Part shown: positions 42,219-57,095 of the stretch, one piece after another
How positions within the stretch are numbered: the stretch's first letter is position 1
Layout: each line of letters begins with the position of its first letter
Origin: Acidimicrobiia bacterium
Lineage (GTDB): Bacteria; Actinomycetota; Acidimicrobiia; Spongiisociales; ZC4RG35
Length of the DNA stretch: 64,000 nucleotides
NCBI GenBank assembly: GCA_036375695.1
Contig: DASVBU010000007.1
Span: forward strand, 5,380-69,379
Direction of reading: 5' to 3'
The notes under the pieces: model-generated
Seen by the model: only the letters and a program-made list of their open reading frames with translations
What the model was told of the DNA's origin: nothing
The model's database searches: none
Translations under genes and position numbers: made by a program

Positions 42219-42632
42219 TCATGGCTTCTCCACCGGTAGTCCCTCTCTCTTCCAAGCCTCGATCCCACCCGAGAGATGACCGAGGTCGCGGTAGCCCAGG
42301 GTCCACAACGTGGACGCAGCCAGGGCCGACCGCTCCCCCGACGAGCAGTAGAGGATGAGGCGGCGACGGTGGTCGAACTCCACCCGATGACGGTGATCCG
42401 CAGGGTCCGCCCAGAACTCGAGCATTCCCCGCGGGGCCCACACCGAGTCAGGGATCCAGCCTGAGACCCTGAGCTCGTCCTCCTCGCGCACGTCGACGAG
42501 AACCGCACCGTCCGACAACTCGCCCCGGACCTCCTGGGGAGACAGGCTCACCAGGTGCCGACTGGCGTCCTCCACCAGTTCGGCTGCCGTTCTGCCGGCT
42601 CTCTCTTCTCCCGTCGACACGGTCCGGACCAT
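42219..42632 (-). CDS. Rhodanese-domain sulfurtransferase
   Basis: 137 aa. The active-site loop is 'LILYCSSGERSALAA', followed by 'GYRDLGHLSGGIEAW'. Confidence 0.8.
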   Translation of the reverse strand: MVRTVSTGEERAGRTAAELVEDASRHLVSLSPQEVRGELSDGAVLVDVREEDELRVSGWIPDSVWAPRGMLEFWADPADHRHRVEFDHRRRLILYCSSGERSALAASTLWTLGYRDLGHLSGGIEAWKREGLPVEKP

Positions 42633-42707
42633 GAATCACGCCGCTGGTACGACTCTGGGAGCCCCCTGGCCACCGCTACCAGCAGATTCCCAGTGGCAGA
42701 TGACACG

Positions 42708-45700
42708 GTGATTCGGGACGCAGGGGTAGAGCCAAGGAGAGTAAGAATCGCCACTGTGAGGTACCGGGCGTTGGGCCCGATCACAGTCGAGGTCGACGGC
42801 CATGCCTCGAGACTCGGCGGTCACCGCCAACGGATCGTTCTGGCGGTACTCCTCAGCCGTGCCAATCAGGTGGTGGCGCAGGACACCCTGATCGACGCCG
42901 TGTGGAGCGGCGAGCCGCCCGAGGCGGCCAGGGCCACCCTGCAGAGCTACATCTACAACCTCCGCCGAGCCACCAAGAGCGACCTCATCCTCCGCCGCGG
43001 CGACGGATATCTGATCGAGGCCGACGCCGGGAGCTTCGACGTGCTCGACTTCACGGCCAAGCTGGAGCAGGGCCGTTCGCTCCTCGCCACCAATCCGGGG
43101 GCGGCCAGGGAGGAGCTCGCAGACGCCCTCGGCCTCTGGTACGGAGCGCCGTACGGCGGGGTGGACCATCTCGAGCTCCACTCCGAGATCCAACGCCTCG
43201 ACGAGATGCGGGTGAACGCAGTCGAGGCGCGGATCCAGGCAGATCTGGCGCTGGGACGGGACGGGGAGCTGGTGGGCGAGCTGGACGCCCTCGTCCGCGA
43301 GTACCCGCTCCGGGAGCGGTTCTGGGGACAGTTGATGCTCGCCCTCTACCGATCCGGGAGGCAGGCCGAGGCACTCCGCACTTTCCAGCAGGCACGCGCC
43401 CGACTGGTCGACGAACTGGGGATCGAGCCCGGGGCCGAACTGCAGGAGCTCGAGGATCGAATCCTGGCTCAGGACCCCTCGCTCCTCCCCGATCGTTCGT
43501 CGAACCCTCACAAGATGGATGCCGGTTCGCTTCGTGGGTACGAATTGCGAGAGGTCCTCGCATCCACCGCTCTGGGTGTGGCCTATCGCGCCTACCAACA
43601 CTCGGTGGGCCGGGAGGTGGTCGTCAAGTCGATCCGGCCCGAGTTCGCCAACGACACGGCATTCGTCGCCCGCTTCGAGAAGGAGGCACAGACGGTCGCA
43701 GCGCTGGGCCACCCGCACATCCTCCCCTTGCACGACTATTGGAGGGACCCGAGTGGTGCCTATCTGGTCGTGCCGTTCATGGCCGGCGGCAGCCTGGCCC
43801 ATTCCCTCCGGGCCCAGCACTGGCACCTGGAGCCGGCGATGCGATTGCTCGACCAGATCGGCGGCGCCCTCGGCCACGCCCATCGCCGGGGAGTGATCCA
43901 CGGGCACCTGACCGCGTCCAGCGTCGTCCTCGACGACGAGGGAAACGCCTATCTGGGGGACTTCGGCATCGGGCTGGCTCCCGACGGCGGTCTTCCGACC
44001 GTGCTCACGGATGTCGAGGCCCTGGGCAGGCTGGCCCTTCACCTGCTCACCGGGGAGCCACCCCGGGGCCAGCCCGACACGACCGGCCTCCCGGCCGGGT
44101 TCGGCGAGGTCGTCGCCCGCGCCGTCGCCGCATCGCCCGGCCGCTATTCCCGGGTGTCCGACTTCCTCCGAGACCTCAGGCGGGCTGCCGGCATGGACGT
44201 GTCCACGGGATCGGATCTGGTCGAGCCACGCGGCGAGCCCATCCGTAACCCGTACAAGGGGCTCCGTGCCTTCACCGAGATGGACGCGGCCGACTTCCAC
44301 GGCCGCGCCGAACTCGTCGGACATCTCCTGCAGACGATCTCCGAGCAGAGGCTGGTCACGATCGTGGGGCCTTCGGGGAGCGGGAAGTCCTCGGTGGTCC
44401 GGGCAGGCGTGGTGCCGTCCTTGCGCGCCGGGGCGTTGGCGGGATCCCAGGACTGGCTGATCACCGACATGTTCCCCGGCTCCTACCCGTTCGAAGAGCT
44501 CGAGGCAGCCCTGCGCCGTGTGTCGGTGCGAGGCGCAGACGACATCATGAGTGAGCTGACCGCACCGACGGGGTTGCTCCGCGTCTGCAAGAGGATCCTC
44601 CCCGAGGACTCGATGCTGCTCCTCATCATCGACCAGTTCGAGGAGCTGTTCTCGCTGGTGCGCTCCGAGGAGGTCAGGCGCACCTTCATCGACAACCTCA
44701 TCGCGGTGGCGGACGACGAGCGGGGTCGGATACGCGTCGTCACCACCATCCGGGCCGACTTCCTCGATCGACCACTCTCCTACGGCGACTTCGCAGCAGC
44801 CATCGCCCCCGGGCTGGTGACAGTCGGGCCACCGGCCCGTGACGGCCTCGCCCAGTCGATCGCCGCCCCGGCACGTGCCGTCGGCCTCGAGCTGGAACCG
44901 GGTCTGGTCACCCAGGTCGTCGCCGACGTGGAGGGCCAACCGGGCGCTCTGCCACTTCTCCAGTACGCGCTCACGGAGACCTTCGCCGCCCGGGAAGGAG
45001 GCACGCTGACCTTCGCCGCCTACGAGTCGACCGGTGGCGTGGCCGGGGCGATCGGGCGACGAGCCGAAGAGCTGTACCAGGACCTGAGCCCTGTCGCCCG
45101 GGAGGTGGCGAGGGAGGTCTTCCTCCGTCTGGTCGCGGTCGACGAAGTCGGAGTGGTGACGCGCAAACGCGCCCGCCAGAACGACCTGACATCGCTGGCC
45201 GTGGATCGGGCGGCCCTGCAGAAGGTGCTCGACGCCTACGCCCGGTTCCGCCTCATCAGCTTCGACCGGGACCCGGTGACCCGAGGTCCGACCGTGGAGG
45301 TCGCCCACGAGGCGCTGCTGACCACGTGGCCGAGGCTGGAGACCTGGATCGACGACGCCCGGGAGACCCTCGTCATGGCCAGACGGGTCGGGGAGTCCGC
45401 CCACGACTGGGTCGCGTCCGACAAGGACCCCAGCTACCTGCTCCGCGGCTCGCGTCTCGACGACATCGAGCGATGGTCCGCCGGCCCGGGCGTGATCCTG
45501 ACCGGCGACGAGGAGGACTTCATCACCGCCAGCGTCATCACCCGCAACGAGGAGATCGCGGCCGGGCGCCGCCGCCGCCGCCGAGCGCTGACGACCCTGT
45601 CCGTGGGGATGGTCCTGGTGAGCCTCTTCGCCATCCTGGCGTTCTTCCAGCGGCAGGCAGCCCGCCGGGAGGCGACCCTCTCCATCAGCAGGGAGCTCGC

Positions 45701-47813
45701 CGGGGCTTCCCGTCAGCTCGCCAATCCGGAGCTGGCCCTCCTGGTGGCCATGGAGGCATTCGACACTTCGATCAGGGACGGTGCGGAGCCGACACAGGAG
45801 GCGGTCAGTGCCCTGGCCCATGCCATGTTCGATTGGCGCCTGATCACACGCTACCCGGCGGCGGGTCGGCTCGGCCCGATGTCGTCCCCGGACGGATCCC
45901 GGGTGGCTGCCCAGTCTGTCGACAACCCCAGGAACGTCGTCGTGTTCGATGCGGGCGGATCCCCGCTGTCCGAGCTCGTCGGTCCGGACCTGGAGGGCAT
46001 CCAGGCCGACTCGACCGCATTCCACCCCGATGGTGAGTTGATCGCGGTCGCATACACCATCGAGGGTGCCCGGACCTATTCGGCAGTCCCGGAAGGTGAA
46101 CCGGACGTGATCTTGTTCCGGGCGTCCACCGGTGCCGAGGTGGCCCGAATCGACCTGGTCCCCATTCCGGACCAGCCGCTCGACAACGGCACGGGCGCTT
46201 TCCCGGTTTCCTTCAGCGCCTCGGGACGGCTTCTGGCACTCTCCGGCGGCACCGAAGTCGCCGTGGTGGACTGGGCCCGAGGCGAGGAGATCACCCGGAT
46301 CCGATTCGCGGGCCCGACGGGCCCTGCGACCTTCCTCGGTGAAGACACGCTCTTCGTCCCCGTGGCCTCACGAGGCTGGACGTGGTACTCGATCAGCGAG
46401 GCCCGGGAAATCGGGGCGGTCGACGTGCCGGGCATGACCGACATCGCCGCGGCCGATCCCGCCGGGCGTCGCCTAGCCCATCGCGTCGGCGAGCGGGTCG
46501 AGGTGTTGGACGCCATGACCAACGAGGTCCTCATCAGCGTGGAGGATCCCGGGATCCTGGCCCTGGCGGTCAGCCCGGACGGCGCGCGTTTCGCCTACTC
46601 CGGATACGACTCCACCATCCACGTCATCGACCTCGAGGGAGGGCGCCCCGAGATCCTTCTCGAGGGCGCCTTGTCGAACGTGATATCGATCACCTTCGTC
46701 GGCCCCGATCGACTCCTCACCAACGGCGAGAACCCGCTCATGTGGGACGTATCCATGGGCTCGGAGGCGTTCGGGTTCGCGTCGCTGTCGAGACCGCAAT
46801 GGGGGTTCCAGGTGTCACCCGACGAACGCTGGCTCGCCTACATGGTCTCCGCGAGCACCGGTCTTCCCATCTTCGACCCGGGCGACGGGGTGCGTCTCAT
46901 CGACCTCGCCTCGCATGACGAGGTCCTGGCCATCGAGGGAGAGCTCCAGAGCGTCCCGATCGGGCTCAGGATGGTGAGCCCCGACTTCACCCTGTTCGGG
47001 TCGCTCCGGGAGGACATGTCGTCCAGCTTGAGGCTCCTGCCCTCCTGGGATCCCGTCGTGGAGTTCGAGCGCTGCCGGGCTGCGCTCGCGTTCTCACCGG
47101 ACAGCACCCGGGTCCTCCTGTCGGGATCACTGTGCCCGGAAGAGCCCGATGGCGCCCCCAACACCGAACTGATCGACCTGGAGACGGGCGAGACGGTGCT
47201 CACCCTGCCCTACTCGTACACCTTCTCAGCCGAGCTGAACCCCGAAGGAACCTTCGAGGCCGGGCGCTATCTCGTCGCCACCGACCAGGACACCGTGGGC
47301 GTCTGGGACACCCACACCGGCGAGCAGTTGGTCGCCCTGGACCCCCCACCCAGCTGGGAGTACGTCCTCGTGGTGAGCTTCGACTCCAGCGGGCGGCGCA
47401 TCGTTGGTGGTACGACTGCAGGGACGGTCTGGGTCCTGGACCTCGCCGCCGTGGTCGAGGGCGCCACGACCGATGAGGCACTGGTGTTCACCAGACAGGC
47501 CCACTCGGGTGCCACCCCAGGCCCGGCCGTGGGCCCCCAGGGGATCGTGGCGTCCCCGGGGTTCGATGGCCTGATCCGGATCTGGGACGTGGATACGGGT
47601 GCCCTTCTCTTCGAGTACGAAGCGGACATGACGACGCCGTATGTCCGGTTCTCCACCGACGGGAGCAGGCTGTTCTATCCCCATGGGCTCAGCATCAGGC
47701 AGATGCCTGTCGACCCCTACGAGCTCCGTGCATTGGCGGGCGAGTTGGTCACTCGGGACTTCCTCCCCGACGAGTGCGAGAGGTACTCCCGCGACCCGTG
47801 CGAACAGGGCTGA
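42708..47813 (+). CDS. Giant multidomain signalling protein: SARP (wHTH + BTAD) - degenerate Ser/Thr kinase - STAND P-loop NTPase - WD40 beta-propeller
   Basis: About 1700 aa. The N-terminus 'YRALGPITVEVDG..RQRIVLAVLL...LIDAVW' is wHTH, and the BTAD carries 'ELHSEIQRLDEMRV...ALYRSGRQAEALRTFQQAR..L..ELGIEP'. The kinase-like region has 'VVVKSI', 'HPHILPL', 'HRRGVIHGHLTASSVVL' (the HRD Asp is replaced) and 'LGDFGIG'. The STAND region has 'PYKGLRAFTEMDAADFHGR' and the Walker A 'GPSGSGKSS'. The C-terminal repeats include 'LIRIWDVDTGALLFEYE'. The start is uncertain: the ATG at 42555 overlaps the rhodanese gene, so GTG 42708 is proposed. Confidence 0.8.
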   Translation: MIRDAGVEPRRVRIATVRYRALGPITVEVDGHASRLGGHRQRIVLAVLLSRANQVVAQDTLIDAVWSGEPPEAARATLQSYIYNLRRATKSDLILRRGDGYLIEADAGSFDVLDFTAKLEQGRSLLATNPGAAREELADALGLWYGAPYGGVDHLELHSEIQRLDEMRVNAVEARIQADLALGRDGELVGELDALVREYPLRERFWGQLMLALYRSGRQAEALRTFQQARARLVDELGIEPGAELQELEDRILAQDPSLLPDRSSNPHKMDAGSLRGYELREVLASTALGVAYRAYQHSVGREVVVKSIRPEFANDTAFVARFEKEAQTVAALGHPHILPLHDYWRDPSGAYLVVPFMAGGSLAHSLRAQHWHLEPAMRLLDQIGGALGHAHRRGVIHGHLTASSVVLDDEGNAYLGDFGIGLAPDGGLPTVLTDVEALGRLALHLLTGEPPRGQPDTTGLPAGFGEVVARAVAASPGRYSRVSDFLRDLRRAAGMDVSTGSDLVEPRGEPIRNPYKGLRAFTEMDAADFHGRAELVGHLLQTISEQRLVTIVGPSGSGKSSVVRAGVVPSLRAGALAGSQDWLITDMFPGSYPFEELEAALRRVSVRGADDIMSELTAPTGLLRVCKRILPEDSMLLLIIDQFEELFSLVRSEEVRRTFIDNLIAVADDERGRIRVVTTIRADFLDRPLSYGDFAAAIAPGLVTVGPPARDGLAQSIAAPARAVGLELEPGLVTQVVADVEGQPGALPLLQYALTETFAAREGGTLTFAAYESTGGVAGAIGRRAEELYQDLSPVAREVAREVFLRLVAVDEVGVVTRKRARQNDLTSLAVDRAALQKVLDAYARFRLISFDRDPVTRGPTVEVAHEALLTTWPRLETWIDDARETLVMARRVGESAHDWVASDKDPSYLLRGSRLDDIERWSAGPGVILTGDEEDFITASVITRNEEIAAGRRRRRRALTTLSVGMVLVSLFAILAFFQRQAARREATLSISRELAGASRQLANPELALLVAMEAFDTSIRDGAEPTQEAVSALAHAMFDWRLITRYPAAGRLGPMSSPDGSRVAAQSVDNPRNVVVFDAGGSPLSELVGPDLEGIQADSTAFHPDGELIAVAYTIEGARTYSAVPEGEPDVILFRASTGAEVARIDLVPIPDQPLDNGTGAFPVSFSASGRLLALSGGTEVAVVDWARGEEITRIRFAGPTGPATFLGEDTLFVPVASRGWTWYSISEAREIGAVDVPGMTDIAAADPAGRRLAHRVGERVEVLDAMTNEVLISVEDPGILALAVSPDGARFAYSGYDSTIHVIDLEGGRPEILLEGALSNVISITFVGPDRLLTNGENPLMWDVSMGSEAFGFASLSRPQWGFQVSPDERWLAYMVSASTGLPIFDPGDGVRLIDLASHDEVLAIEGELQSVPIGLRMVSPDFTLFGSLREDMSSSLRLLPSWDPVVEFERCRAALAFSPDSTRVLLSGSLCPEEPDGAPNTELIDLETGETVLTLPYSYTFSAELNPEGTFEAGRYLVATDQDTVGVWDTHTGEQLVALDPPPSWEYVLVVSFDSSGRRIVGGTTAGTVWVLDLAAVVEGATTDEALVFTRQAHSGATPGPAVGPQGIVASPGFDGLIRIWDVDTGALLFEYEADMTTPYVRFSTDGSRLFYPHGLSIRQMPVDPYELRALAGELVTRDFLPDECERYSRDPCEQG

Positions 47814-47944: not shown

Positions 47945-48628
47945 TCAGCGGTCCCGGCGGAGCAGTGTCCGTATCGCCGAGTTCTTCCACAGGTTGGACA
48001 CGTACTTCCAGTGACGCTTCCGGTCCACCAGTTGAGCCGTCATCTCCACCTTCGGCTCGGCGACCCCGAAGTGGCCGGCGACCTGGCTCAGCGTGTGGTT
48101 CCAGATCTTGTCCTCCAGCCGCGAGGTGTAGATCTTGAAGCTCACCTCGTACAGCGGGTCGTTGGCGCGGACCAGGAGATGGATCCGGGCGACCGTGACA
48201 CCCTCGTCGTCCTCATGGGCGCTGAATGTGATGATGGCCGCCCAGGGATGACCCTCCGGCGTCATGTACGACCAGGAACGCTCGTCGGCGTAGATCACAC
48301 GGACGCCGGTCGTCACCCGGGTCGGCCCCTTGCCGCCGCCGATGACGGCGATCTCACCGGGGGCGATGCCGCCGGCCGGGGCGTAGAACTTGTTCGACGG
48401 GTACCAGAAGTCCCCGAACTTCGTCTTCCAGGTCGCGATCACCTCTTCCGGCGTCGGGCCCGGGATCCTGACCTCGTAGGTCTTCTGCCAGAGCTGGCCG
48501 AATCCTTGCAGCGGACCCACCGGGCGACGTCCCTCGACGTTGCCGGTCGGTGCCCCCTCGGGGACTTCCCCGAGACGGAACGCATCCACGGGCTTGGCCC
48601 AGTTGTCGGCGTTGATCGGTTCCGCCAT
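47945..48628 (-). CDS. Hypothetical protein (possibly DUF1990-like)
   Basis: 227 aa from ATG 48628 (MAEPINADNW...). The resemblance to DUF1990 is weak. The longer ORF in the track has an Arg-rich N-terminus that is probably not coding. Confidence 0.4.
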   Translation of the reverse strand: MAEPINADNWAKPVDAFRLGEVPEGAPTGNVEGRRPVGPLQGFGQLWQKTYEVRIPGPTPEEVIATWKTKFGDFWYPSNKFYAPAGGIAPGEIAVIGGGKGPTRVTTGVRVIYADERSWSYMTPEGHPWAAIITFSAHEDDEGVTVARIHLLVRANDPLYEVSFKIYTSRLEDKIWNHTLSQVAGHFGVAEPKVEMTAQLVDRKRHWKYVSNLWKNSAIRTLLRRDR

Positions 48629-48678: not shown

Positions 48679-49812
48679 TTACGACCGGATCCAGACACCG
48701 GCGGACACCGGCTGAACCGTTTCGGCCACCACGTCCCTCCATCCCGTGGCGATGTCGTCGGGGTCGACGCGGGAGCGGAGCGAGCGTGCGAAGGCGTCGG
48801 TCACCTTCCAGGCGTCGTAGCGGGCCCGGTTGAATCGGCGGTCGATGGCGCCCTGAACGCGCCTTCGGAGAGGGTTGAAGAGCGCCGCCACCGCCAGGGT
48901 GGAGGCGGCAACCGCCAGGGACGAATCCGTCGGCATCATCGACCCGATCACGGTCACGACTCCTACGAAGACCAGACCGAGGAGGCCCACCACCAGCAGG
49001 TAGGTGACGGTGCGGGAGACGATCTTGTCGATGTCGTAGAGACGGTATTTGAGGACCGATATCCCGATCGCGATCGGGAGGCCGAGGATGGCGGCCCCTG
49101 TCAGCAGGTCCCAAACGAACATGGGGACCGGGATCAGGTCGGCCAGCGTCTCCTGGATCGCGGTGGTGACGATCATGGCGAAGACCGCGAAGGCGAACCA
49201 CTTGATCTGCTGCCGCTCCAGATGACGGGCGTTGATCCATCTCGACACGAGCGAGAGCGCGGCGAGGACCACGAATATCGCCAGCACCAGATACCCGGCC
49301 GTGGAGAGTGGCCCGTGCTCCGGGTTGGGGATCCAGGAGATGCCGATCGGGTTATCCGCCCAGACGAGACACGAGCCATCCCCGGCGGTCTCCATGCAGA
49401 TGCGACCGGCGACGACATAGCTCGCGGCCAGCAGCCCGATACCCGCCCCGACCCAGCCGAGAAAGCCCCATCTACTCGAGGCAGGCCTCCCGTCGGGGAA
49501 CCAGTAGACCAGGAGCCCGACGAGCACGAACCAGGAGAGCCAAACCGCGCCACCGATCGCCCCCGCCAGCGCGTTGCCTCCCTTTGCCAGGTCGTCGAGG
49601 ACACCGCTGCTGAGGAGGAACACGCCGATGCCGGTCATCACCCAGCCGACGCGGTTGCCGTCTGTCCGGTAGAGGATCAGAGCGCCGACGACCGCGAAGA
49701 CCAGAGCTGCCAGACCGAGCAGGACCTCACCGGGCTCCTCCGCATCCGAGATCGCCATCGCGCTCAGGGCGGCCGCCCCGGAGACCAGGGCCAGCGAGGA
49801 GGCGACCCTCAC
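48679..49812 (-). CDS. Membrane protein resembling a histidine-kinase sensor/linker region without a kinase core (paralog 1)
   Basis: 377 aa with about 8 TM helices. The C-terminus 'VLKYRLYDIDKIVSRT...NPLRRRVQGAIDRRFNRARYDA...VAETVQPVSAGVWIRS' ends where HisKA_3 would normally begin. Confidence 0.6.
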   Translation of the reverse strand: MRVASSLALVSGAAALSAMAISDAEEPGEVLLGLAALVFAVVGALILYRTDGNRVGWVMTGIGVFLLSSGVLDDLAKGGNALAGAIGGAVWLSWFVLVGLLVYWFPDGRPASSRWGFLGWVGAGIGLLAASYVVAGRICMETAGDGSCLVWADNPIGISWIPNPEHGPLSTAGYLVLAIFVVLAALSLVSRWINARHLERQQIKWFAFAVFAMIVTTAIQETLADLIPVPMFVWDLLTGAAILGLPIAIGISVLKYRLYDIDKIVSRTVTYLLVVGLLGLVFVGVVTVIGSMMPTDSSLAVAASTLAVAALFNPLRRRVQGAIDRRFNRARYDAWKVTDAFARSLRSRVDPDDIATGWRDVVAETVQPVSAGVWIRS

Positions 49813-49828
49813 ACCGACGGATCTGCGC

Positions 49829-50179
49829 TCAGACTGCGGCGAGGGCGGCCTCCTCGTCGTCGAAGACCTCGATGGCCTCGTCGATGCGAGTGAGTGCGAG
49901 GATCTGGCGATAGTGGTCGGTCAGACCGCACGCCAGGAGCCGGTGCCCGCTCCGCTGCGCCCGGATCAGCGTCGTGACGAGCAACCCGATACCGCCACTG
50001 TTCATGTACTGGAGGCCCTCGAAGTTGAGGATGACGGCGTCGACGCCGCCTGCCGAGGCCTCCTCGTGCGCCCTGGTGATCTCGGCCTCGGAGAAGGCCG
50101 TGATCTCGCCCACGATGTCGACGGCGCGGACGCGTGGCGCCAGTTCTCGTACGGTCATCGTCACATTGGCGGATGGCAT
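49829..50179 (-). CDS. STAS-domain anti-sigma-factor antagonist
   Basis: 'VDIVGEITAFSEAEI...AVILNFEGLQYMNSGGIGLLVTTL...LLACGLTDHYRQILALTRIDEAIEVF' is the SpoIIAA/RsbV fold pattern. The start is chosen at the internal ATG (MPSANV). Confidence 0.7.
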   Translation of the reverse strand: MPSANVTMTVRELAPRVRAVDIVGEITAFSEAEITRAHEEASAGGVDAVILNFEGLQYMNSGGIGLLVTTLIRAQRSGHRLLACGLTDHYRQILALTRIDEAIEVFDDEEAALAAV

Positions 50180-50189
50180 TGGTCTCCTC

Positions 50190-50534
50190 TCACCGGGCCG
50201 CGACCGCGGCCTCTTCGTCGTCATGGATCGTCATGAAGTCGGCCAGACGGGTGATGGTGAACACCTCGCGGTAGTGGTCCGACAGTCCGAATGCGTGGAT
50301 CTCCCGCTCCTCGGCGCGGGCCCTCGCCAGCAGTCCGACGATGACCGCGATCCCGGTGGAGTTGATGTAGTCCACGCCCCGGAAGTCCAACACCACGCGT
50401 CCCGGCCGGCTGGTCGCCTCGGCGTAGGCCGCCTCGAGGGTCTCCTTGGCGCCACGGTCCACGGTGCCCACGAGGGTCACGACACTTCCGTCGTCGAGTG
50501 GCGCCGTCGTGGCCCGAAACTCGCTGTCCATCAC
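50190..50534 (-). CDS. STAS-domain anti-sigma-factor antagonist
   Basis: 114 aa. 'VTLVGTVDRGAKETL...VVLDFRGVDYINSTGIAVIVGLL...HAFGLSDHYREVFTITRLADFMTIH'. Confidence 0.75.
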   Translation of the reverse strand: MMDSEFRATTAPLDDGSVVTLVGTVDRGAKETLEAAYAEATSRPGRVVLDFRGVDYINSTGIAVIVGLLARARAEEREIHAFGLSDHYREVFTITRLADFMTIHDDEEAAVAAR

Positions 50535-52111
50535 AGCGCTCCCTTCCTCTTCACGATCAGCTCCACCGTGTGGGTGCGACCGTCGCTGGTGGAGCGGACC
50601 TCGTCGACCATCTTCTCGATCAGGAACAGGCCCCAGCCGCGAGGTGTCTGGGTGCCGGCGAGCTTCGCCTCGAGATCCGGGGTCTGCGCCTCGGGTATCT
50701 CCTTCGCCCCGCCCTGGTCGGTGACGCGAATCGTCAGGACCTCGTCCGTGGCCCTGACCTCGACCCCCACCTCGAGTTCGGGGCGGTTCTCGTTGCCGTG
50801 CTCGATGGCGTTCATCACCGTCTCGGCGAGGGCTGTCTTGAGACGCTCGACGTCCCGTTCCTCGAACCCGAGCGGGGCGACCACCTCCGCCAGACGGGCA
50901 ATGGCGACGCGCTCGTTCCCCTCCTCGCTGGCGACCGTGAAGGCGTCCAGCAGCTCACCGCTCTCGAAGGCCAGCGCCGAGTCCTGGGCCGAGCTCGACC
51001 GACGCACCACCACCAGCGTGATGTCGTCTTCCTGCTCCGCGTCGGGACCGGTGAAGGCCTCCAGGTCGCTGACCACCGCCGTGACCATGTCGTCCGACCG
51101 CCGGGCCACGCGGGACATCAGCCTCCCGAAGCCGTACATCTCGCCTCTGGGGTCGTGGGCCTCGGTGATCCCGTCGCTCGTCAGGACCATGATCTCGCCC
51201 GAGCCCATGGTGTAACGCTTCTCCTCGTAGTCCATGCCGGGCATGAGGCCGAGGGGCATCCCTGCGGCGCGGATCTCGACGACGCCGTCGGAGGTCTGCA
51301 TGTAGGGGAGGTTGTGGCCGGCGTTGGCCAACACGACGTCGCCACGCTCCGTGTCGATGATGGCGTACAGACACGTGACGAACATCGCCGCCGGGATCTC
51401 GGGGACCAGGGCGTCGTTGACCTCGGCGAGGACCTGTGAGGGTGACCCGTGCCGCTGCGCCGCGGCCCGCAGCATCGACCGGCAGGTGGCCATGACCAAT
51501 GCCGCGGGCACACCCTTGTCGGTGACGTCGCCGATGACCACGCCGAGCCGGCCGTCGCCCAGGGGGATGAAGTCGTAGAAGTCCCCGCCCACGGCCCGGG
51601 CGGGGCGATAGAAGGCGCTGACGTGCCAACCGGGGATCGCCGGCAGCTCCTTCGGGAGCAGGGTCTGCTGGATCAGGGCGGCGACCTTGAGCTCCTGCTC
51701 GATCCGCTCCCGCTCCTTGGCCTCGGCCTGCTGCTCCCGGATCAGTTGGGCGACCCGCATCGCCGGCGCCACCTGGGCGGCGAGACCACCGAGGAGCCTG
51801 CGGTCGTCGCTCGAGTACGGCTGGTCGGAGAGACGGGGCCCGAGATAGAGGGCGCCGAGGAGCTCTCCCTGGCCGATGAGGGGGACGATGAGCTCGACTC
51901 CCGCGGAGCGGATGGTCTCCAGCGTCGGAGAGACGAGCTCCAGGTCGCCGACGCCCACCGGTCCGCCCGCGGACAAGAGGACAGTCTCGAGGGGGTCGCC
52001 CGACGGGATGGGGATCGGGTCGAGCAGGGTCGTCGGCGTCACGGGCCCCTTGCCTACGGATGTCTGCCCGTTCTCGGCCCGGCGCCGTCGCAATCTCTGA
52101 AGCATCGTCAC
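50531..52111 (-). CDS. GAF - PP2C(SpoIIE) phosphatase - HATPase_c (RsbW-like kinase) fusion protein
   Basis: 526 aa. The N-terminus is GAF-like ('GELLGALYLGPRLSDQPYSSDDRRLLGGLAAQVA'), the middle is a SpoIIE phosphatase ('GGDFYDFIPLGDGRLGVVIGDVTDKG', 'VLTSDGITEA'), and the C-terminus is a GHKL ATPase ('AETVMNAIEHGN', 'TPRGWGLFLIEKMVDEV'). Confidence 0.8.
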   Translation of the reverse strand: MTMLQRLRRRRAENGQTSVGKGPVTPTTLLDPIPIPSGDPLETVLLSAGGPVGVGDLELVSPTLETIRSAGVELIVPLIGQGELLGALYLGPRLSDQPYSSDDRRLLGGLAAQVAPAMRVAQLIREQQAEAKERERIEQELKVAALIQQTLLPKELPAIPGWHVSAFYRPARAVGGDFYDFIPLGDGRLGVVIGDVTDKGVPAALVMATCRSMLRAAAQRHGSPSQVLAEVNDALVPEIPAAMFVTCLYAIIDTERGDVVLANAGHNLPYMQTSDGVVEIRAAGMPLGLMPGMDYEEKRYTMGSGEIMVLTSDGITEAHDPRGEMYGFGRLMSRVARRSDDMVTAVVSDLEAFTGPDAEQEDDITLVVVRRSSSAQDSALAFESGELLDAFTVASEEGNERVAIARLAEVVAPLGFEERDVERLKTALAETVMNAIEHGNENRPELEVGVEVRATDEVLTIRVTDQGGAKEIPEAQTPDLEAKLAGTQTPRGWGLFLIEKMVDEVRSTSDGRTHTVELIVKRKGAL

Positions 52112-52116
52112 GATGT

Positions 52117-53277
52117 CTACTCCCCCATCGTCCCGGAACCGTTACGGAGCCAGACGCCCACCGAGGCCGGCTGCATCGTCTCCGACACCACACCGACCCA
52201 TCCGTCGACCACCTCCGGCCCGTCCACCTTGTCCTGCAACGATCCCACGAAACGCTCCACGACCTGAACCGCGTCGTAGCGTGATCGGTTGAATCGGCGG
52301 TCCACCCAACTCTGGACACGACGCCTGACCGGGTTGAAAGAACCGGCCACCGCCAGGGTCGAACCGGCCACCGCCAGGGGGCTCTCGGTGGGCAGGATGG
52401 AAGACAGGGCGGTCACCCCGACGAAGAACAGGGCTGCGAGGAGCCCCACAACGATCACATACGACACGGTCCGGGAGAGGATCCGGTCGATCTCGTACAG
52501 CCGGTACCGGACGATGGCCACCCCGATCGACACGGGTATGGCCCAACCTCCCACCAGCACCCACAAGTCGGTGGCGATGGAATTCTCGGGGAGGACCTGG
52601 CCGAGGGCGCTGTCCAACACGAAGACGAGCCCACCGAGGAGCAACCACCGGTACTGCTGACCTTCGACACCCGAGCTCCCGCGGGCGCGGGCGAACAACC
52701 TCAGGAGAGCCAGAGCGCCCAAGAGAACGATGAGGAAGAAGCCGGACTCGTTGGTGATCACGGCCAGACCCGCAAGGCCGGGCACGGCGAGAGGGCTGGG
52801 CCGGCCCGTGTCGTACATGGGCTCGGGACTGATCGTGAATCCGAGCACGGCCCAGAGGGCGACCAGGATGAGCAACCTCCCCAGCCGGGCCTCCCACCGC
52901 GTGGCGTAGGCCCCGGTGGGGAAGGTGTTGAGAAGGGCGACGATGACGATCCAGGGCACTATGCCGAGCACCGTGTAGGCCAACTCCACCCACGGGCCGA
53001 TGGCTGGACGGACGTCGTACACGAAGGCCTGCAACCCGAACGCCAGGCCCATGATCGCGCCCACGCCGAGGGACAGTCGCCCGATGCGGTTGCCGGGCCT
53101 CTGCGTCAGGATCATCCACCCCGCGATCGGCCAACCCAGCCAGTACAGCGGGAACCAGCCGCCGGAGACGGCGTTGGCCAGGGGGCCTCGTCGGGTGGCG
53201 AGGACCATGCCCGCCAGGCTGGCCAGGGCGACCAGGGTCACCAGCGACCGCCGCAGATCCCAGCGCGCCCTCTTCAT
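52117..53277 (-). CDS. Membrane protein resembling a histidine-kinase sensor/linker region without a kinase core (paralog 2)
   Basis: 386 aa with about 8 TMs. The C-terminus 'IVRYRLYEIDRILSRT...NPVRRRVQSWVDRRFNRSRYDA...VSETMQPASVGVWLRN' is homologous to 48679..49812. Confidence 0.6.
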   Translation of the reverse strand: MKRARWDLRRSLVTLVALASLAGMVLATRRGPLANAVSGGWFPLYWLGWPIAGWMILTQRPGNRIGRLSLGVGAIMGLAFGLQAFVYDVRPAIGPWVELAYTVLGIVPWIVIVALLNTFPTGAYATRWEARLGRLLILVALWAVLGFTISPEPMYDTGRPSPLAVPGLAGLAVITNESGFFLIVLLGALALLRLFARARGSSGVEGQQYRWLLLGGLVFVLDSALGQVLPENSIATDLWVLVGGWAIPVSIGVAIVRYRLYEIDRILSRTVSYVIVVGLLAALFFVGVTALSSILPTESPLAVAGSTLAVAGSFNPVRRRVQSWVDRRFNRSRYDAVQVVERFVGSLQDKVDGPEVVDGWVGVVSETMQPASVGVWLRNGSGTMGE

Positions 53278-53404
53278 CCTGGTACGTGGTGGTTCATGTC
53301 GTAGACCCCACCCTCACCATCGTCCGTTACGGAATCGCTACCACCATGGCGTTCCGGTCAGCCACATCGAAGCAGCACCCGTAACGGTGGGTTAGGTTGC
53401 TGCC

Positions 53405-56113
53405 GTGCTCGACGTCAACCTACTAGGGACTCCGGAGGCCCTGGTCGACGGGAAGCCGATCAGGGTCGACACCACCAAGGCGATCGCCCTCCTGGCCTAC
53501 CTGGTGGTGGAACGCACCGCGCGGAGGGACACCCTGGCCGCGCTCCTCTGGGCGGATTCGTCACAGGAACGTGCCCGGGCGACCCTCCGTCGCACCCTGT
53601 CTGCCCTGCGCACCGCGGCGGGAGCCGACCTGATCGACTCCGATCGCAGCACCGTCACCCTCAGCGACCAGGTCGTGTCCGACTACGGCCAACTGCTCGC
53701 CGAATTGGATGCCACGACCCGGCACGACCACGCGCCAGGTGATGTTTGCCCGCTCTGCATGCCACATCTCGAGAAGGCGTCATCCCTCTATCGGGGCGAC
53801 TTCCTCCAGGGATTCGCCGTCCGGTCCGCCCCCGAGTTCGAGCACTGGTCCCGAAACGTGGCCCAGGCACTCCAGATCCGCATGTCCGGCGTCTTCGAGA
53901 GACTGGCCTCCGGCCTCGCCGCCTCCGGGGACTTCGACGCCGCCTCCGCGACCGTGGTGCGGTGGATCGAACTCGACCCACTCCACGAGCCGGCCTATCG
54001 CCTCCTCATGCTGCTCCGGGCCTGGGCGGGCGACCGGCCCGGCTCCATCGACGCCTACCGGGAGTGCGTCGCCGTGCTCGACCGCGAGTTGGCCGTGCCA
54101 CCACTCGAGGAGACCACGGAGTTGTACGAGGCGATCCTCGACGAGGACCTCCCGCCACCGCCCGGTGCCCGGAGGCGGGTGAGGCAGGCGGACTCCAAGC
54201 AGGCTCCCGTCCCCCCGGGTCTCATCGATCGGCAAGCCGAGTTGCAGAGCCTCCGGGGCGCGCTCGACGCCGCCCGGGAAGGAGGTCAGGTCGTGGCGAT
54301 GACAGGAGCACCATGGATGGGCAAGACCCGGCTCGCAGACGAGCTCATCGCCGCGGCGTCGGACCGCTGGACCGTCCTGGCCGGACGCGGTTACCGGATG
54401 GAGCAGGACCTTCCATACGGCGTGGTGACACAGCTCCTCCGGCCCGCGATCGAACGCATCGAGGAGGCCGGGCTCCCGGCATGGGTGATCGGAGAGCTGG
54501 CCCGCCTGCTGCCCGGTCTCGGTCGGGCCGGCATCGCCGACCCGTACGGCGAGAGCAGGTTGCTCGAGGCCATCCACGCCGCCGTGGGAGCTCTGGCAGC
54601 CGGCCGACCCCTGCTCATCGTGGTCGACGACGCCCATTGGGCGGATTCGTCATCGGCGGCCGTGCTCGCTTTCGTCGCCCGCCGCACGAAGGGGTTGCCC
54701 GTCCTCGTCCTCGTCCTGGCGCGAGAAGGCGAGGCCCCGCCTGCCGAGCTGGCGGACCTCATGTCCACCGCAGACGTGAGGATCTCGCTCCAGCCCCTCA
54801 CGGTGACCCAGCTGCTCCCGTTGGTGGGGAACGACGCGACGGCAGCACGGGACCTCGAGCTCCGCACCGGCGGGATCCCCCTCCTCGCGGCCGAGGCCCT
54901 CGCCTCCGGTGACGGCACATCGACACCCGGTTTGACCCGTTATCTGGAGACGAGGTGGAACGAACTGGGTGACCTGGAGCGACAACTCCTCACCGCCGCG
55001 GCCGTTCTCGGCGGGACCTGTGATCCCGGGTTGCTCCGGGACACCAGTGGGCGCTCTGAGGAAGAGGTCGTGGAGGGGGTGGAGAGGCTGACTGCCTTGG
55101 GGCTCCTCCGCGAGACGGCCGACGGAATCGGCTTCACCCTGGATGCGATGGAGCGGTTGGCATACGAGTCCGCATCCCTGGTTCGGCGCCGTCTGCTCCA
55201 TGGCCGCGCCGGCGATGCGCTGGCAGCCCGGCCCGACGTGCAGCGTGACGTCGCCGCCGCCGCGTCGGTCGCAGCGCAATACCAGGCCGCCGCTCGACCC
55301 GAGGCCGCGACCTGGTACCTCCTCGCCGGGGACCTCGCCCGAGCCGTCTACGCCCACGACATGGCCCGCCACTTCTACGAGTCGGCCCTGGCCCTGGGGA
55401 CGAACCGGGTGGCCGAAGCGAGACTGGCGATCGCGGAGCTCGACATGGCGGCCGGCCGATACGAGGAGGCTCGACGACAGCTCACCCTGGCGGGTCCTTC
55501 GGCCGGTGACCTCTCCGGGGTGATCCTGCATCGACTCGGTGACGTCGAGCGTCTCCTCGGCCGTTTCGACTCCGCCGAGGACCTGTATCGGTCGGCCCTG
55601 GACTCGGGCGCCGCCGAAGTGGCCCTGTTCTCCGACTGGGCGCTCCTCGCCATGCGCACCGGCAGGCAAGCCGTGGCCGTCGAGTTGGCCGAGAGGGCAC
55701 GCGCCTCGGCGGAGGAAGGAGGCAGCGACCTGGAACGCTCCCGGGTGCGCAGCATCCTCGCCGCGGTGACCACCGACCCGGGTACCGCCCTGGCCCATGC
55801 GGAGGCGGCCGCCGAGCTCGCCGGCGAGGACGAGGTCCTGCTCATGGCGGCGCTCAACAGCCAGGCGCTCGTCCTCGCCGAGCGCGGCGACCACGACCGC
55901 GCCGGCACGGTCCTGGAGCAGGCTATTGCCATCGCCCAACGGACCGGCCACCGGCATCGCGAGGCCGCGCTGTGGAGCCATCTCGGCGACATCCATCACC
56001 GTGCCGGCCGGGAGGACGAGGCCCGCCGGGCGCAGACACGGGCCGTGTCGATGTTCGCCGACATCGACGCCGGAGGGTTCGAGCCCGAGCTCTGGCTGCT
56101 CACCCGTTGGTGA
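53405..56113 (+). CDS. AfsR-like SARP-family regulator (wHTH/BTAD + AAA/NB-ARC-like ATPase + TPR-like C-terminus)
   Basis: 902 aa. The N-terminus 'LLGTPEALVDGKPIRV..KAIALLAYLVV...LLWAD' is followed by a BTAD ('LRAWAGDRPGSIDAYRECVAVLDRELAVPP'), the Walker A 'MTGAPWMGKTRLADEL', the Walker B 'LLIVVDDAHWAD', and a helical repeat C-terminus. Confidence 0.8.
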   Translation: MLDVNLLGTPEALVDGKPIRVDTTKAIALLAYLVVERTARRDTLAALLWADSSQERARATLRRTLSALRTAAGADLIDSDRSTVTLSDQVVSDYGQLLAELDATTRHDHAPGDVCPLCMPHLEKASSLYRGDFLQGFAVRSAPEFEHWSRNVAQALQIRMSGVFERLASGLAASGDFDAASATVVRWIELDPLHEPAYRLLMLLRAWAGDRPGSIDAYRECVAVLDRELAVPPLEETTELYEAILDEDLPPPPGARRRVRQADSKQAPVPPGLIDRQAELQSLRGALDAAREGGQVVAMTGAPWMGKTRLADELIAAASDRWTVLAGRGYRMEQDLPYGVVTQLLRPAIERIEEAGLPAWVIGELARLLPGLGRAGIADPYGESRLLEAIHAAVGALAAGRPLLIVVDDAHWADSSSAAVLAFVARRTKGLPVLVLVLAREGEAPPAELADLMSTADVRISLQPLTVTQLLPLVGNDATAARDLELRTGGIPLLAAEALASGDGTSTPGLTRYLETRWNELGDLERQLLTAAAVLGGTCDPGLLRDTSGRSEEEVVEGVERLTALGLLRETADGIGFTLDAMERLAYESASLVRRRLLHGRAGDALAARPDVQRDVAAAASVAAQYQAAARPEAATWYLLAGDLARAVYAHDMARHFYESALALGTNRVAEARLAIAELDMAAGRYEEARRQLTLAGPSAGDLSGVILHRLGDVERLLGRFDSAEDLYRSALDSGAAEVALFSDWALLAMRTGRQAVAVELAERARASAEEGGSDLERSRVRSILAAVTTDPGTALAHAEAAAELAGEDEVLLMAALNSQALVLAERGDHDRAGTVLEQAIAIAQRTGHRHREAALWSHLGDIHHRAGREDEARRAQTRAVSMFADIDAGGFEPELWLLTRW

Positions 56114-56159: not shown

Positions 56160-57095
56160 ATGGGTGACCTGCGCTGGAGAGGCCCCAACGAGGGCGGCCT
56201 GTTCGAATTGAGTCGACGCGTCCCGGGCCGGGGCGCCTATCGGGGTCTGACCTTCCACGAGGTGGAGGCGCAGACGATCCTCAACCGTGTCGACGCCCCG
56301 AACCTCCCGTTCGGCTGGACGATCAACCCCTATCGGGGCTGCAGCCACGCCTGCGTCTACTGCTTCGCCCGTCCCACCCACGAGTATCTGGGTCTGGGCA
56401 TCGGGCGGGAGTTCGAGACCGAGATCGTGGTCAAGATCAACGCGGTCGAGTTGACCCGGGCGGAGACCGCCCCGGGCCGATGGGCCGGGGAGCACATCGC
56501 GATGGGGACCAACACCGATCCCTATCAGCCCGCCGAGGGCAAGTATCGGCTGACGCGGGGCATCCTCGAAGTGCTGGTCGAGCGTCGCAACCCGTTCGGC
56601 ATGCTCACCAAGTCGACGCTGGCGCTTCGCGACCTCGACCTCTTCGTCGAGGCCTCACGTCACACCGAGGTATCGGTGAGCTTCTCCATCGGCACCCTCG
56701 ACCCCGAGGTGTGGAGGGAGACCGAGCCGGGCACACCCCACCCCATGCGGCGGGTGGAGGCCATCGCCAAGCTCAGCGAGGCCGGCGTGCGCACCGGGGT
56801 CCTCATAGCACCCATCATCCCCGGCCTCTCGGACCATCCCGACCAGGTGGCGGCGGTGGAGGCCGCCTGTCGGGAAGCGGGAGCCGGCTCGATCTCCACG
56901 ATCAAGCTCCATCTCCGCCCCGGCGTAAAGGAGCACTTCATGGGCTGGCTCGGTGACACCCATCCCGAGCTGGTGGCCCGCTACGAGGCCCTGTATCGCA
57001 ACCGGGCCTACCTGTCCCGGGGGACCTCCCGCCGCAGGCCCCCGAGGGAACGAAACAAGCCGGCGGCGTTCCAGCCCTCCCTCCCACTGGGCTGA
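56160..57095 (+). CDS. Radical SAM protein, SplB/DNA-repair-photolyase-like (COG1533)
   Basis: 'INPYRGCSHACVYCFARP' carries the CxxxCxxC radical-SAM motif in the SplB-family context. Confidence 0.7.
   Translation: MGDLRWRGPNEGGLFELSRRVPGRGAYRGLTFHEVEAQTILNRVDAPNLPFGWTINPYRGCSHACVYCFARPTHEYLGLGIGREFETEIVVKINAVELTRAETAPGRWAGEHIAMGTNTDPYQPAEGKYRLTRGILEVLVERRNPFGMLTKSTLALRDLDLFVEASRHTEVSVSFSIGTLDPEVWRETEPGTPHPMRRVEAIAKLSEAGVRTGVLIAPIIPGLSDHPDQVAAVEAACREAGAGSISTIKLHLRPGVKEHFMGWLGDTHPELVARYEALYRNRAYLSRGTSRRRPPRERNKPAAFQPSLPLG

What the first reader, a model, noticed from the sequence alone, without database searches (positions are those of the whole stretch)
48679..49812. Histidine-kinase-like sensor and linker region terminating exactly where the kinase core should start (paralog 1 of 2)
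The C-terminal 'YRLYDIDKI..RT..Y...NPLRRRVQ..IDRRFNRARYDA.....QP.S.GVWIR' is the sort of polytopic sensor-plus-linker region that I recall preceding the HisKA_3 H-box (normally followed by ...ELHD) in some actinobacterial sensor kinases. Here the protein simply ends. A homologous copy lies 3.4 kb away at 52117..53277. The two appear to be stand-alone sensor halves that may signal through the adjacent GAF-PP2C-HATPase protein rather than through a fused kinase.
Basis: inference. Interest (0 to 1): 0.5.

Follow-up and report, generated by a model that had tools for sequence, protein, structure and literature searches.

The report
Stand-alone kinase-type membrane sensors beside phosphatase switch
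The two genes encode intact membrane proteins that are the sensor part of a class of histidine kinases without the kinase, and they sit in a widely conserved gene cassette next to a phosphatase/kinase "partner-switching" protein that probably reads them out.

Summary
ORFs 48679-49812 and 52117-53277 (both on the minus strand) are paralogues (37% identity, E 4e-51). Both end just after a conserved ...QP...GVW(I/L)R motif, and no kinase remnant follows either.

They are not truncated genes. They belong to a very large family with no Pfam or NCBIfam model: 17,836 representative clusters match the C-terminal module. In 236 of 242 copies the protein stops within 20 residues of that motif.

Complete GAF-HisKA_3 histidine kinases from Deinococcus, Streptomyces, Embleya and Chlorohelix carry the whole module at their N-terminus (165-219 bits for the first three, 102 bits for Chlorohelix; hhalign probability 100%). 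In those kinases the family's end corresponds to the first helix and strand of a GAF-like domain, about 85 residues before the H-box. So it does not end "exactly" at the kinase core.

The neighbouring GAF-PP2C-HATPase protein starts with the rest of that GAF-like domain.

A cassette is conserved across Acidimicrobiia, Rubrobacteraceae and Chloroflexota: AfsR-like regulator, 1-9 tandem sensor paralogues, GAF-PP2C-RsbW-like protein, two STAS proteins, and a DUF1990-like protein. Within arrays the sensor bundles diverge (18-38% identity) while the C-terminal module stays conserved (52-75%).

Signalling from the sensors to the phosphatase is strongly suggested but not shown.

The parts
48679..49812 (-). 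M paralogue 1 (377 aa). A 10-helix membrane protein: a variable N-terminal helix bundle, a conserved YRLYDID loop, a TM9-TM10 hairpin, and a cytoplasmic tail of about 60 aa that ends ...QPVSAGVWIRS.
   Evidence: ORF. 100% identical to P0001. AF2 model has pLDDT 90.6 and pTM 0.80. Conservation and charge distribution by region. Family profile score 474 bits.
52117..53277 (-). M paralogue 2 (386 aa). Same family. Its stop codon lies 5 nt before the start of the GAF-PP2C-HATPase gene.
   Evidence: (389 bits).
50531..52111 (-). P (526 aa). A partial GAF-like N-terminal domain, a long helical linker (aa 101-151), a PP2C/SpoIIE phosphatase domain, and an RsbW-like HATPase_c_2 kinase domain.
   Evidence: Pfam: SpoIIE 4e-51, HATPase_c_2 2e-19; the GAF hits cover only the C-terminal part of the profiles. 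NCBIfam hits to SpoIIAB and RsbW. AF2 model. Best PDB fold match is 3KE6, the RsbU and RsbW domains of Rv1364c, E 3e-21.
50190..50531 (-). STAS protein 1 (113 aa), an anti-sigma-factor-antagonist type. It has ...INSTG... at the position of the canonical phospho-serine.
   Evidence: Pfam STAS 2e-12. Gene call. The motif is read from the translation.
49829..50179 (-). STAS protein 2 (116 aa). It has ...MNSGG... at the position of the canonical phospho-serine.
   Evidence: Pfam STAS 3e-13. Gene call.
47945..48628 (-). D (227 aa), a DUF1990-like protein and the last gene of the cassette.
   Evidence: Weak Pfam DUF1990 hit, E 8e-4. Start codon. Present in 18 of 22 cassette loci.
53405..56113 (+). 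B (902 aa), an AfsR-like regulator (SARP/BTAD, AAA_16, TPR), transcribed divergently from the cassette.
   Evidence: ORF. Pfam families on the same gene. Present in 19 of 22 cassette loci.

Best explanation
Both ORFs are intact members of a very large membrane-protein family with no Pfam or NCBIfam model. The family is the stand-alone form of the membrane sensor module found at the N-terminus of a class of GAF-HisKA_3 histidine kinases.

Each protein has a fast-diverging N-terminal helix bundle with an outward-facing beta-hairpin, which I take to be the input. It also has a strongly conserved C-terminal module: the YRLYDID cytoplasmic loop, the TM9-TM10 hairpin, and a cytoplasmic tail of about 60 aa.

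The protein stops after the element that, in the kinases, is the first helix and strand of a small GAF-like domain. The neighbouring protein P begins with the remainder of that GAF-like domain. P continues through a long helical linker into a PP2C phosphatase and an RsbW-like serine kinase.

Proposed mechanism (inferred, not shown): the membrane proteins, probably as dimers, dock through their conserved tail onto the incomplete GAF-like domain of P. The signal passes down the coiled-coil linker and sets the balance between P's phosphatase and kinase activities towards the two STAS proteins. The STAS proteins then act by partner switching on a target not encoded in the cassette.

The 1-9 tandem paralogues would be alternative input subunits for a single, highly conserved output protein.
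For: Homology to kinase sensors (shown).
- Family profile against Deinococcus WP_015231682.1: 218.9 bits, profile positions 9-366 aligned to aa 32-406.
- hhalign probability 100%, E 4e-40, 341 columns; the family's C-terminus aligns to kinase residues 404-418.
- BLASTP of paralogue 1 against that kinase: 28% identity over 352 aa, E 2e-26.
- Streptomyces, Embleya and Chlorohelix kinases also carry the module.
- The Deinococcus kinase then has a partial GAF (418-480), HisKA_3 (502-569) and HATPase_c, followed by a NarL-type response regulator.
- Weaker independent signals: PrsK TIGR02916 is hit by 31 of 120 members, best E 1e-8, and the three alignments shown all end at profile position 346, at the protein's C-terminus. 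HisKA_7TM is hit by 7 of 120 members.

A complete family (shown).
- 17,836 representative clusters match the C-terminal 142 aa.
- 236 of 242 copies stop less than 20 aa after the W-x-R motif.

Variable input, constant output (shown).
- Mean top-residue frequency is 0.31-0.47 in the N-terminal helices against 0.64-0.88 in the C-terminal module.
- Within arrays, identity is 18-38% in the N-terminal part against 52-75% in the C-terminal module.

Link to P.
- The gene order B< M(xN)> P> S> S> (M>) D> recurs in Acidimicrobiia, Rubrobacteraceae, Chloroflexota and other MAGs.
- The gap from the M stop to the P start is 4-11 nt in 8 loci.
- The P N-terminal profile matches three of these kinases immediately after their sensor module.
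- In the whole window, the only significant match to the post-sensor part of the kinases is P aa 72-142.
- The Pfam GAF hits on P start at profile position 59 of 133. The AF2 model shows only two long strands before the linker helix, and residues 1-27 are disordered.
- P is very conserved, at least 68% identity in 120 clusters.
- Control of PP2C phosphatases by exchangeable N-terminal sensor domains through a coiled-coil linker is established (PMC12143880).
- Proteins with two fused M modules exist, which is consistent with the module acting as a dimer.
Against: - No physical or functional M-P interaction was tested.
- No natural M-P fusion was seen among the 120 best hits of a concatenated query.
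- 33 of 80 loci hold a solitary M among housekeeping genes, with no P within reach. Their tails are as conserved as those in cassettes. So the tail's role cannot be limited to a neighbouring P. At least three MAGs do hold both a P-linked locus and a solitary copy.
- No sigma factor or other obvious target is encoded nearby.
- The ligand or stimulus is unknown.
- The 80 loci are the best matches to this protein, not an unbiased sample.
Confidence: 0.65

Rival explanations
1. The membrane proteins are anchors, scaffolds or substrates rather than sensors. They would hold P at the membrane, or be phosphorylated and dephosphorylated by P on the invariant Ser/Thr residues of the conserved module, without detecting any signal themselves.
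For: The most conserved residues lie on the cytoplasmic side and include near-invariant S266, T268, T305 and T365. Synteny with a kinase/phosphatase protein is conserved.
Against: The same module is the only N-terminal region of bona fide histidine kinases, where it sits in the sensor position. Strong diversification of the helix bundle among co-resident paralogues is typical of input domains. It is not needed for a simple anchor.
Confidence: 0.17
2. The proteins are transporters or other membrane enzymes that are merely co-regulated with the partner-switching genes and do not pass information to P.
For: One homologue carries the automatic JGI label 'MFS family permease'. Solitary copies lie next to ion channels or Na+/H+ exchangers in three loci. 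Fold search finds only generic helix bundles.
Against: No transporter family is matched in Pfam or NCBIfam. The module is fused to kinase cores in several phyla. The conserved part is the cytoplasmic tail, not the membrane core. The gene boundary with P falls inside a GAF-like domain that is continuous in the kinases.
Confidence: 0.1
3. The two ORFs are decayed histidine-kinase genes, that is, truncations or pseudogenes whose kinase half was lost recently.
For: They end where related kinases continue.
Against: The same end point is kept in 236 of 242 copies across phyla and in thousands of clusters. There is no kinase-like sequence downstream in any frame. The intergenic gaps are 50 nt and 5 nt.
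Confidence: 0.01

Closest known systems
GAF domain-containing HisKA_3 sensor histidine kinases that carry this membrane module: Deinococcus peraridilitoris WP_015231682.1, and Streptomyces sp. YIM 121038 WP_138957285.1 and WP_138957284.1.
   Same: The whole membrane module is shared, including the FPxG loop, the R..ER.Q.KW motif, the LRYRLYDID loop, the TM9-TM10 hairpin and the tail helices (165-219 bits). It is followed by a small GAF-like domain whose C-terminal half resembles the N-terminus of P.
   Different: The kinases continue into the complete GAF-like domain, a HisKA_3 H-box (RDLHD) and HATPase_c, and are paired with a NarL-type response regulator. The window proteins stop after the first helix and strand of that domain. 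They carry the family-specific DRRFNRxRYDA tail motif, which the kinases lack.
PrsK (TIGR02916), the PEP-CTERM system histidine kinase, and Pfam HisKA_7TM (PF16927).
   Same: There is weak but recurrent similarity to their N-terminal membrane regions. PrsK is hit by 31 of 120 members (best E 1e-8), and the three alignments shown all end at PrsK profile position 346. The GAF region of P matches PrsK positions 410-472. HisKA_7TM is hit by 7 of 120 members.
   Different: All scores are far below the curated cut-offs (12.7 against 300 bits; no HisKA_7TM hit for the window proteins). There is no kinase core. The PrsK sensor region is itself uncharacterised (PMC1569441).
RsbU/RsbV/RsbW and SpoIIE/SpoIIAA/SpoIIAB partner-switching modules, and the fused M. 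tuberculosis protein Rv1364c.
   Same: The cassette has a PP2C phosphatase, an RsbW-like HATPase_c_2 kinase and STAS proteins. The best structural match of P is 3KE6, the RsbU and RsbW domains of Rv1364c. An N-terminal sensor domain joined to the PP2C by a long helix fits the general linker mechanism (PMC12143880). From general knowledge, SpoIIE also combines a 10-helix membrane domain with a PP2C.
   Different: Here the membrane part is a separate, multiplied gene with kinase-sensor ancestry. The GAF-like domain of P is incomplete. There are two separate STAS genes. No sigma factor gene is in the cluster.
Stressosome RsbR paralogues: several sensor paralogues feeding one output.
   Same: The logic is similar: multiple diverged input paralogues with a conserved output-facing part, associated with one partner-switching output (general knowledge, and for the literature).
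   Different: RsbR proteins are soluble globin-STAS proteins in a large cytoplasmic complex. The proteins here are polytopic membrane proteins unrelated in sequence. The analogy is functional only.

Membership tests
Sensor histidine kinase, HisKA_3 (NarL-partner) class | A DHp domain with the phospho-accepting H-box (Pfam HisKA_3). | tested here: not met
   Neither paralogue has any Pfam hit at E <= 0.1. The proteins end at the position equivalent to residue ~418 of the Deinococcus kinase, whose HisKA_3 domain starts at 502.
Sensor histidine kinase, HisKA_3 (NarL-partner) class | An HATPase_c catalytic domain, either in the same protein or as a decayed remnant downstream. | tested here: not met
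   No HATPase_c hit in either paralogue. tblastn of three kinase cores against the window finds nothing downstream of either stop.
Sensor histidine kinase, HisKA_3 (NarL-partner) class | An N-terminal membrane sensor module homologous to that of family members. | tested here: met
   Family profile against the kinases scores 102-219 bits. hhalign probability is 100%. BLASTP E 2e-26.
Pfam HisKA_7TM (PF16927) | A match to the model above the gathering score (28.6 bits). | tested here: not met
   The window proteins give no hit. Seven of 120 relatives hit at E <= 0.01 (best 1.9e-4); the one score seen, for homologue P0118, is 25.3 bits, below the cut-off.
PrsK (NCBIfam TIGR02916) | A match above the curated cut-off (300 bits) that includes the kinase core. 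| tested here: not met
   12.7 bits, E 0.035, covering profile positions 128-346 only.
Stand-alone membrane-module family with no Pfam or NCBIfam model (this family) | A full-length match to the family profile, with the protein ending within about 20 residues of the W-x-R motif. | tested here: met
   474 and 389 bits for the two window ORFs. The end point is shared by 236 of 242 copies. More than 100 homologues of 360-430 aa were found.
Partner-switching cassette (RsbU/RsbV/RsbW type) | A PP2C phosphatase, an RsbW-type HATPase_c_2 kinase and STAS antagonist(s) encoded together. | tested here: met
   Pfam SpoIIE 4e-51, HATPase_c_2 2e-19, and STAS 2e-12 and 3e-13. Fold match to the RsbU and RsbW domains of Rv1364c.
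Partner-switching cassette (RsbU/RsbV/RsbW type) | A target sigma factor, or other switched partner, encoded in the same cluster. | tested here: not met
   No sigma-factor family appears among the called genes within +/-10 kb or in the related loci.
GAF domain (N-terminus of P) | A complete GAF fold, with the N-terminal helix and a 5-6-stranded sheet. | tested here: inconclusive
   Pfam hits cover only profile positions 59-132 of 133 (GAF) and 86-135 of 136 (GAF_2). The AF2 model shows two short helices and two long strands, with residues 1-27 disordered. Coordinates could not be inspected.

The most novel reading that the evidence does not exclude
The boundary between the membrane protein and P is a fission inside a GAF-like domain. 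The tail of each membrane paralogue (helix plus the GVW(I/L)R strand) would complete the truncated GAF-like domain of P in trans. Up to nine diverged membrane sensors, including solitary copies elsewhere in the genome, would then compete or alternate as detachable input subunits of one PP2C/RsbW-type switch. This would be a modular, many-sensors-to-one-output membrane signalling system built by splitting a histidine-kinase sensor from its transmitter.
Probability: 0.3. Interest if true: 0.8.

Novelty: new variant of a known kind. Interest (0 to 1): 0.6.

Why it matters
How partner-switching phosphatases receive membrane or environmental signals is poorly understood outside a few model organisms. 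This cassette offers a natural case in which a histidine-kinase sensor module has been detached, multiplied and placed next to a PP2C/RsbW-type protein. It fits the recent proposal that sensor domains are exchangeable between kinases, cyclases and PP2C phosphatases through a common helical linker (PMC12143880).

The family is large: 17,836 representative clusters match its C-terminal module. It has no Pfam or NCBIfam model, so defining it would annotate many "hypothetical proteins" in Actinomycetota and Chloroflexota. If the tail really completes the GAF-like domain of P in trans, that would be a new way of wiring several sensors to one output.

Tried and rejected
- **Direct family and structure searches on the two ORFs.** Pfam and NCBIfam gave nothing usable for the ORFs themselves.
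- **Extra NCBIfam scans.** I scanned the family consensus plus 9 members, and then 10 further members. Only two more weak PrsK hits appeared.
- **PDB searches.** Sequence search with the family profile and Foldseek on the AF2 model found no meaningful relative; the best hits were generic GPCR-like bundles, E > 0.008, TM <= 0.36. The afdb50 library was not available.
- **Plasmid search.** tblastn of the window's own C-terminal 142 aa against plasmids found nothing. Only the family consensus found the Deinococcus kinase, at a weak E of 0.1, which was then confirmed with profiles.
- **The search for homologous proteins.** This tool appears to return only proteins of roughly 0.6-1.75 times the query length. 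The first search therefore could not show kinase-fused relatives. The GAF-region search returned only short fragments.
- **Concatenated query.** A synthetic paralogue 2 + P query (912 aa) returned only P orthologues and no natural fusion.
- **Fusion model.** An alignment for a synthetic M+P fusion model was misaligned by MAFFT, so I abandoned it. No multimer prediction was possible.
- **Kinase GAF-like region against the PDB.** Only the DesK H-box was hit.
- **Long family members.** They turned out to be tandem M-M fusions, not kinase fusions.
- **Literature.** Searches found no description of this family or cassette.
- **Pseudogene reading.** Rejected on the evidence.

Full report
**Observation.** The window is high-GC DNA (about 67% GC). 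The ORF at 48679-49812 (minus strand, 377 aa) is 100% identical to P0001, a hypothetical protein from an Acidimicrobiia metagenome-assembled genome. The ORF at 52117-53277 (minus strand, 386 aa) is a real paralogue, with 37% identity over 348 residues and E 4e-51.

**Local context.** All on the minus strand, the order is:
- paralogue 2 (52117-53277);
- a 526-aa GAF-SpoIIE(PP2C)-HATPase_c_2 protein, here called P (50531-52111);
- two STAS proteins (50190-50531 and 49829-50179);
- paralogue 1 (48679-49812);
- a 227-aa DUF1990-like protein, D (47945-48628).

A 902-aa BTAD-AAA_16-TPR regulator of the AfsR type, here called B (53405-56113, plus strand), is transcribed divergently. Paralogue 2 stops 5 nt before the GTG of P, with a GGGGGAG stretch just upstream of it. 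Paralogue 1 is followed by 50 nt and then the ATG of D. There is no room for a kinase remnant. In addition, tblastn of the post-sensor parts of three real kinases against the whole window finds nothing downstream of either stop.

**A complete and very large family.**
- Neither paralogue matches any Pfam model at E <= 0.1.
- A search with paralogue 1 returns more than 5,000 homologues. The best 120 are almost all 360-430 aa and come mostly from Acidimicrobiia.
- The C-terminal 142 residues alone match 17,836 representative clusters at E <= 0.001 and 774 at E <= 1e-30. The best 150 nearly all end with the match.
- In 86 loci, 242 family ORFs have the C-terminal end aligned. Of these, 236 stop within 20 residues of the W-x-R motif, and none runs into another domain.
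- The few long family members are two modules fused in tandem, not kinase fusions.

The proteins are therefore not truncated.

**Anatomy.** AlphaFold2 with a 120-sequence alignment gives a confident model (pLDDT 90.6, pTM 0.80). It has ten long helices, a beta-hairpin at 137-153, and then tail helices at 329-345 and 351-365 followed by a final extended segment.

Charge distribution fits an N-in, C-in topology. The tail averages 11 Lys+Arg. The loops I assign to the outside have almost none, and the hairpin loop is acidic.

Conservation is strongly polarised. In the first eight helices the mean top-residue frequency is 0.31-0.47. It is 0.88 in the YRLYDI loop, 0.64 in helix 9, 0.81 in the membrane part of helix 10 and 0.67 in the tail. 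Additional conserved cytoplasmic motifs are FPxG and R..R.Q..W.

Among paralogues of the same array, the first 250 profile columns are 18-38% identical and the rest 52-75% identical. For the two window copies the figures are 18% and 56%. This is the pattern of a variable input joined to a constant output-facing part.

**Relation to histidine kinases.** Curated models give weak hints only:
- PrsK (TIGR02916) is hit by 31 of 120 members, best E 1e-8. The three alignments shown all end at profile position 346, which is the C-terminus of the family member.
- HisKA_7TM is hit by 7 of 120 members.

The decisive evidence came from a tblastn of the family consensus against plasmids. It found a Deinococcus peraridilitoris "GAF domain-containing sensor histidine kinase" of 717 aa.
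- The family profile matches residues 32-406 of this kinase with 218.9 bits.
- hhalign gives probability 100% and E 4e-40 over 341 columns. The family's last residues (ETMQP...GVWVR) align to kinase residues 404-418 (EALKLPFVAVTLESD).
- BLASTP of paralogue 1 against the kinase gives E 2e-26.
- After the module, the kinase has a partial GAF match (418-480), HisKA_3 (502-569, H-box RRDLHDD) and HATPase_c. A NarL/GerE response regulator is encoded next to it.

Two tandem kinases in Streptomyces sp. YIM 121038, an Embleya ORF and a 1,373-aa Chlorohelix kinase carry the same module, scoring 102-178 bits.

One correction is needed: the family ends about 85 residues before the H-box, after the first helix and strand of an intervening GAF-like domain.

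**P supplies the rest of that domain.**
- The Pfam GAF hits on P cover only the C-terminal part of the profiles (positions 59-132 of 133 and 86-135 of 136).
- The AF2 model of P has residues 1-27 disordered, then two short helices and two long strands (74-80 and 83-90), and then a 50-residue helix into the PP2C domain.
- A profile of P residues 1-140 matches three of these kinases just after their sensor module: P 70-130 against Deinococcus 434-492, Streptomyces 390-452 and Streptomyces 433-482, with E 2e-7 to 3e-6.
- In an unbiased tblastn of the kinases' post-sensor parts against the 64-kb window, the only significant hits are P residues 72-142.

So M plus the N-terminus of P is colinear with the sensor plus GAF-like domain of the kinases. 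The PP2C and HATPase part of P is most like the RsbU and RsbW domains of M. tuberculosis Rv1364c (3KE6, E 3e-21).

**Conserved cassette.** Contigs that encode homologues, together with 80 species-level loci from the genome collection, show a recurring order: B< M(xN)> P> S> S> (M>) D>. It occurs in Acidimicrobiia, Chloroflexota, Nocardioidaceae and other MAGs. Rubrobacteraceae have the variant P S S D M...M B<.

Of the 80 loci:
- 22 carry P plus both STAS genes, and 4 more have P at a contig end;
- 44 have two or more tandem M genes, up to nine;
- 33 have a solitary M.

B is present in 19 and D in 18 of the 22 complete cassettes. In 8 loci the last M stops 4-11 nt before P. P is far more conserved than M, with at least 68% identity across 120 clusters.

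Solitary copies lie among housekeeping genes, and their tails are as conserved as those in cassettes. At least three MAGs contain both a P-linked locus and a solitary copy; this is read from the contig accession prefixes together with the layouts.

**Mechanism.** These points are shown:
- homology to kinase sensor modules;
- completeness of the family;
- the polarised conservation;
- the conserved cassette;
- the colinearity of M plus P with the kinases.

These points are inferred. The membrane proteins detect a membrane or extracytoplasmic cue with their variable bundle. They pass it through the conserved tail to the incomplete GAF-like domain of P. The long helix then controls the PP2C domain, as described for RsbU and related phosphatases with exchangeable sensor domains (PMC12143880). 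P's phosphatase and RsbW-like kinase set the phosphorylation state of the two STAS proteins. Both STAS proteins keep a Ser at the canonical position (INSTG and MNSGG, read). The switched target is unknown, because no sigma factor is encoded nearby.

The more specific idea, that the tail completes the GAF fold of P in trans, could not be tested. Only single-chain predictions without coordinates were available.

**Rivals.** An anchor or substrate role, or an unrelated transport function, cannot be excluded. Both fit poorly with three facts: the module occupies the sensor position in real kinases, the helix bundle diversifies strongly between co-resident paralogues, and the gene boundary with P lies inside a domain that is continuous in the kinases. 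The pseudogene reading is refuted.

**Novelty.** None of the five literature searches turned up a description of the family or the cassette, and no Pfam or NCBIfam model covers the family. Every component belongs to a known class. What is new is the arrangement: a kinase-type membrane sensor detached from its transmitter, multiplied in tandem, and placed in front of a PP2C/RsbW partner-switching protein with a truncated GAF-like domain. I rate it a new variant of a known kind, of moderate to good interest.

Noticed in passing
window 42555-47813 (+): A giant ORF (1,752 aa from the first start codon; called as 1,680 aa in the public contig). It combines Trans_reg_C/BTAD, a Ser/Thr protein kinase, an nSTAND1 NTPase and beta-propeller repeats. 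It is convergent with the cassette.
   Followed up: no
P0122, P0136, P0217, P0226 (917-961 aa); P0093, P0140, P0157 (577-654 aa): Some family members hold two modules in one polypeptide, either both complete or one partial plus one complete. P0136 also has an N-terminal PDZ domain. This may mean the module works as a dimer, or it may reflect read-through gene calls.
   Followed up: partly
P0269 and P0270 (145 aa, on contigs of 400 kb and 31 kb): Short proteins 69-71% identical to the first ~140 residues of P. They look like the partial GAF-like domain encoded as a gene of its own, which suggests further splitting of the system in some genomes. In L006 the HATPase part of P is also called as a separate gene.
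   Followed up: no
L032:8649-11300 (+): Next to a solitary family member lies a SufB gene interrupted by an intein (Hint and LAGLIDADG domains).
   Followed up: no
L004:2982-5657 (-): The AfsR-like regulator of this cassette is split into five ORF pieces and P into two. This points either to a decaying copy or to sequencing frameshifts in that contig.
   Followed up: no
window 58422-59093 (+) and 56160-57095 (+): An EAL-domain protein (223 aa) and a radical-SAM protein (311 aa) flank the regulator side of the cassette. The radical-SAM gene is also next to the regulator in L001 and L002.
   Followed up: no
window 53278-53404: The 127-bp divergent promoter region between the AfsR-like regulator and paralogue 2 holds two similar CGT(T/A)ACGG elements about 57 bp apart and several short inverted repeats. 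These are possible regulator binding sites. Conservation in other loci was not tested.
   Followed up: no
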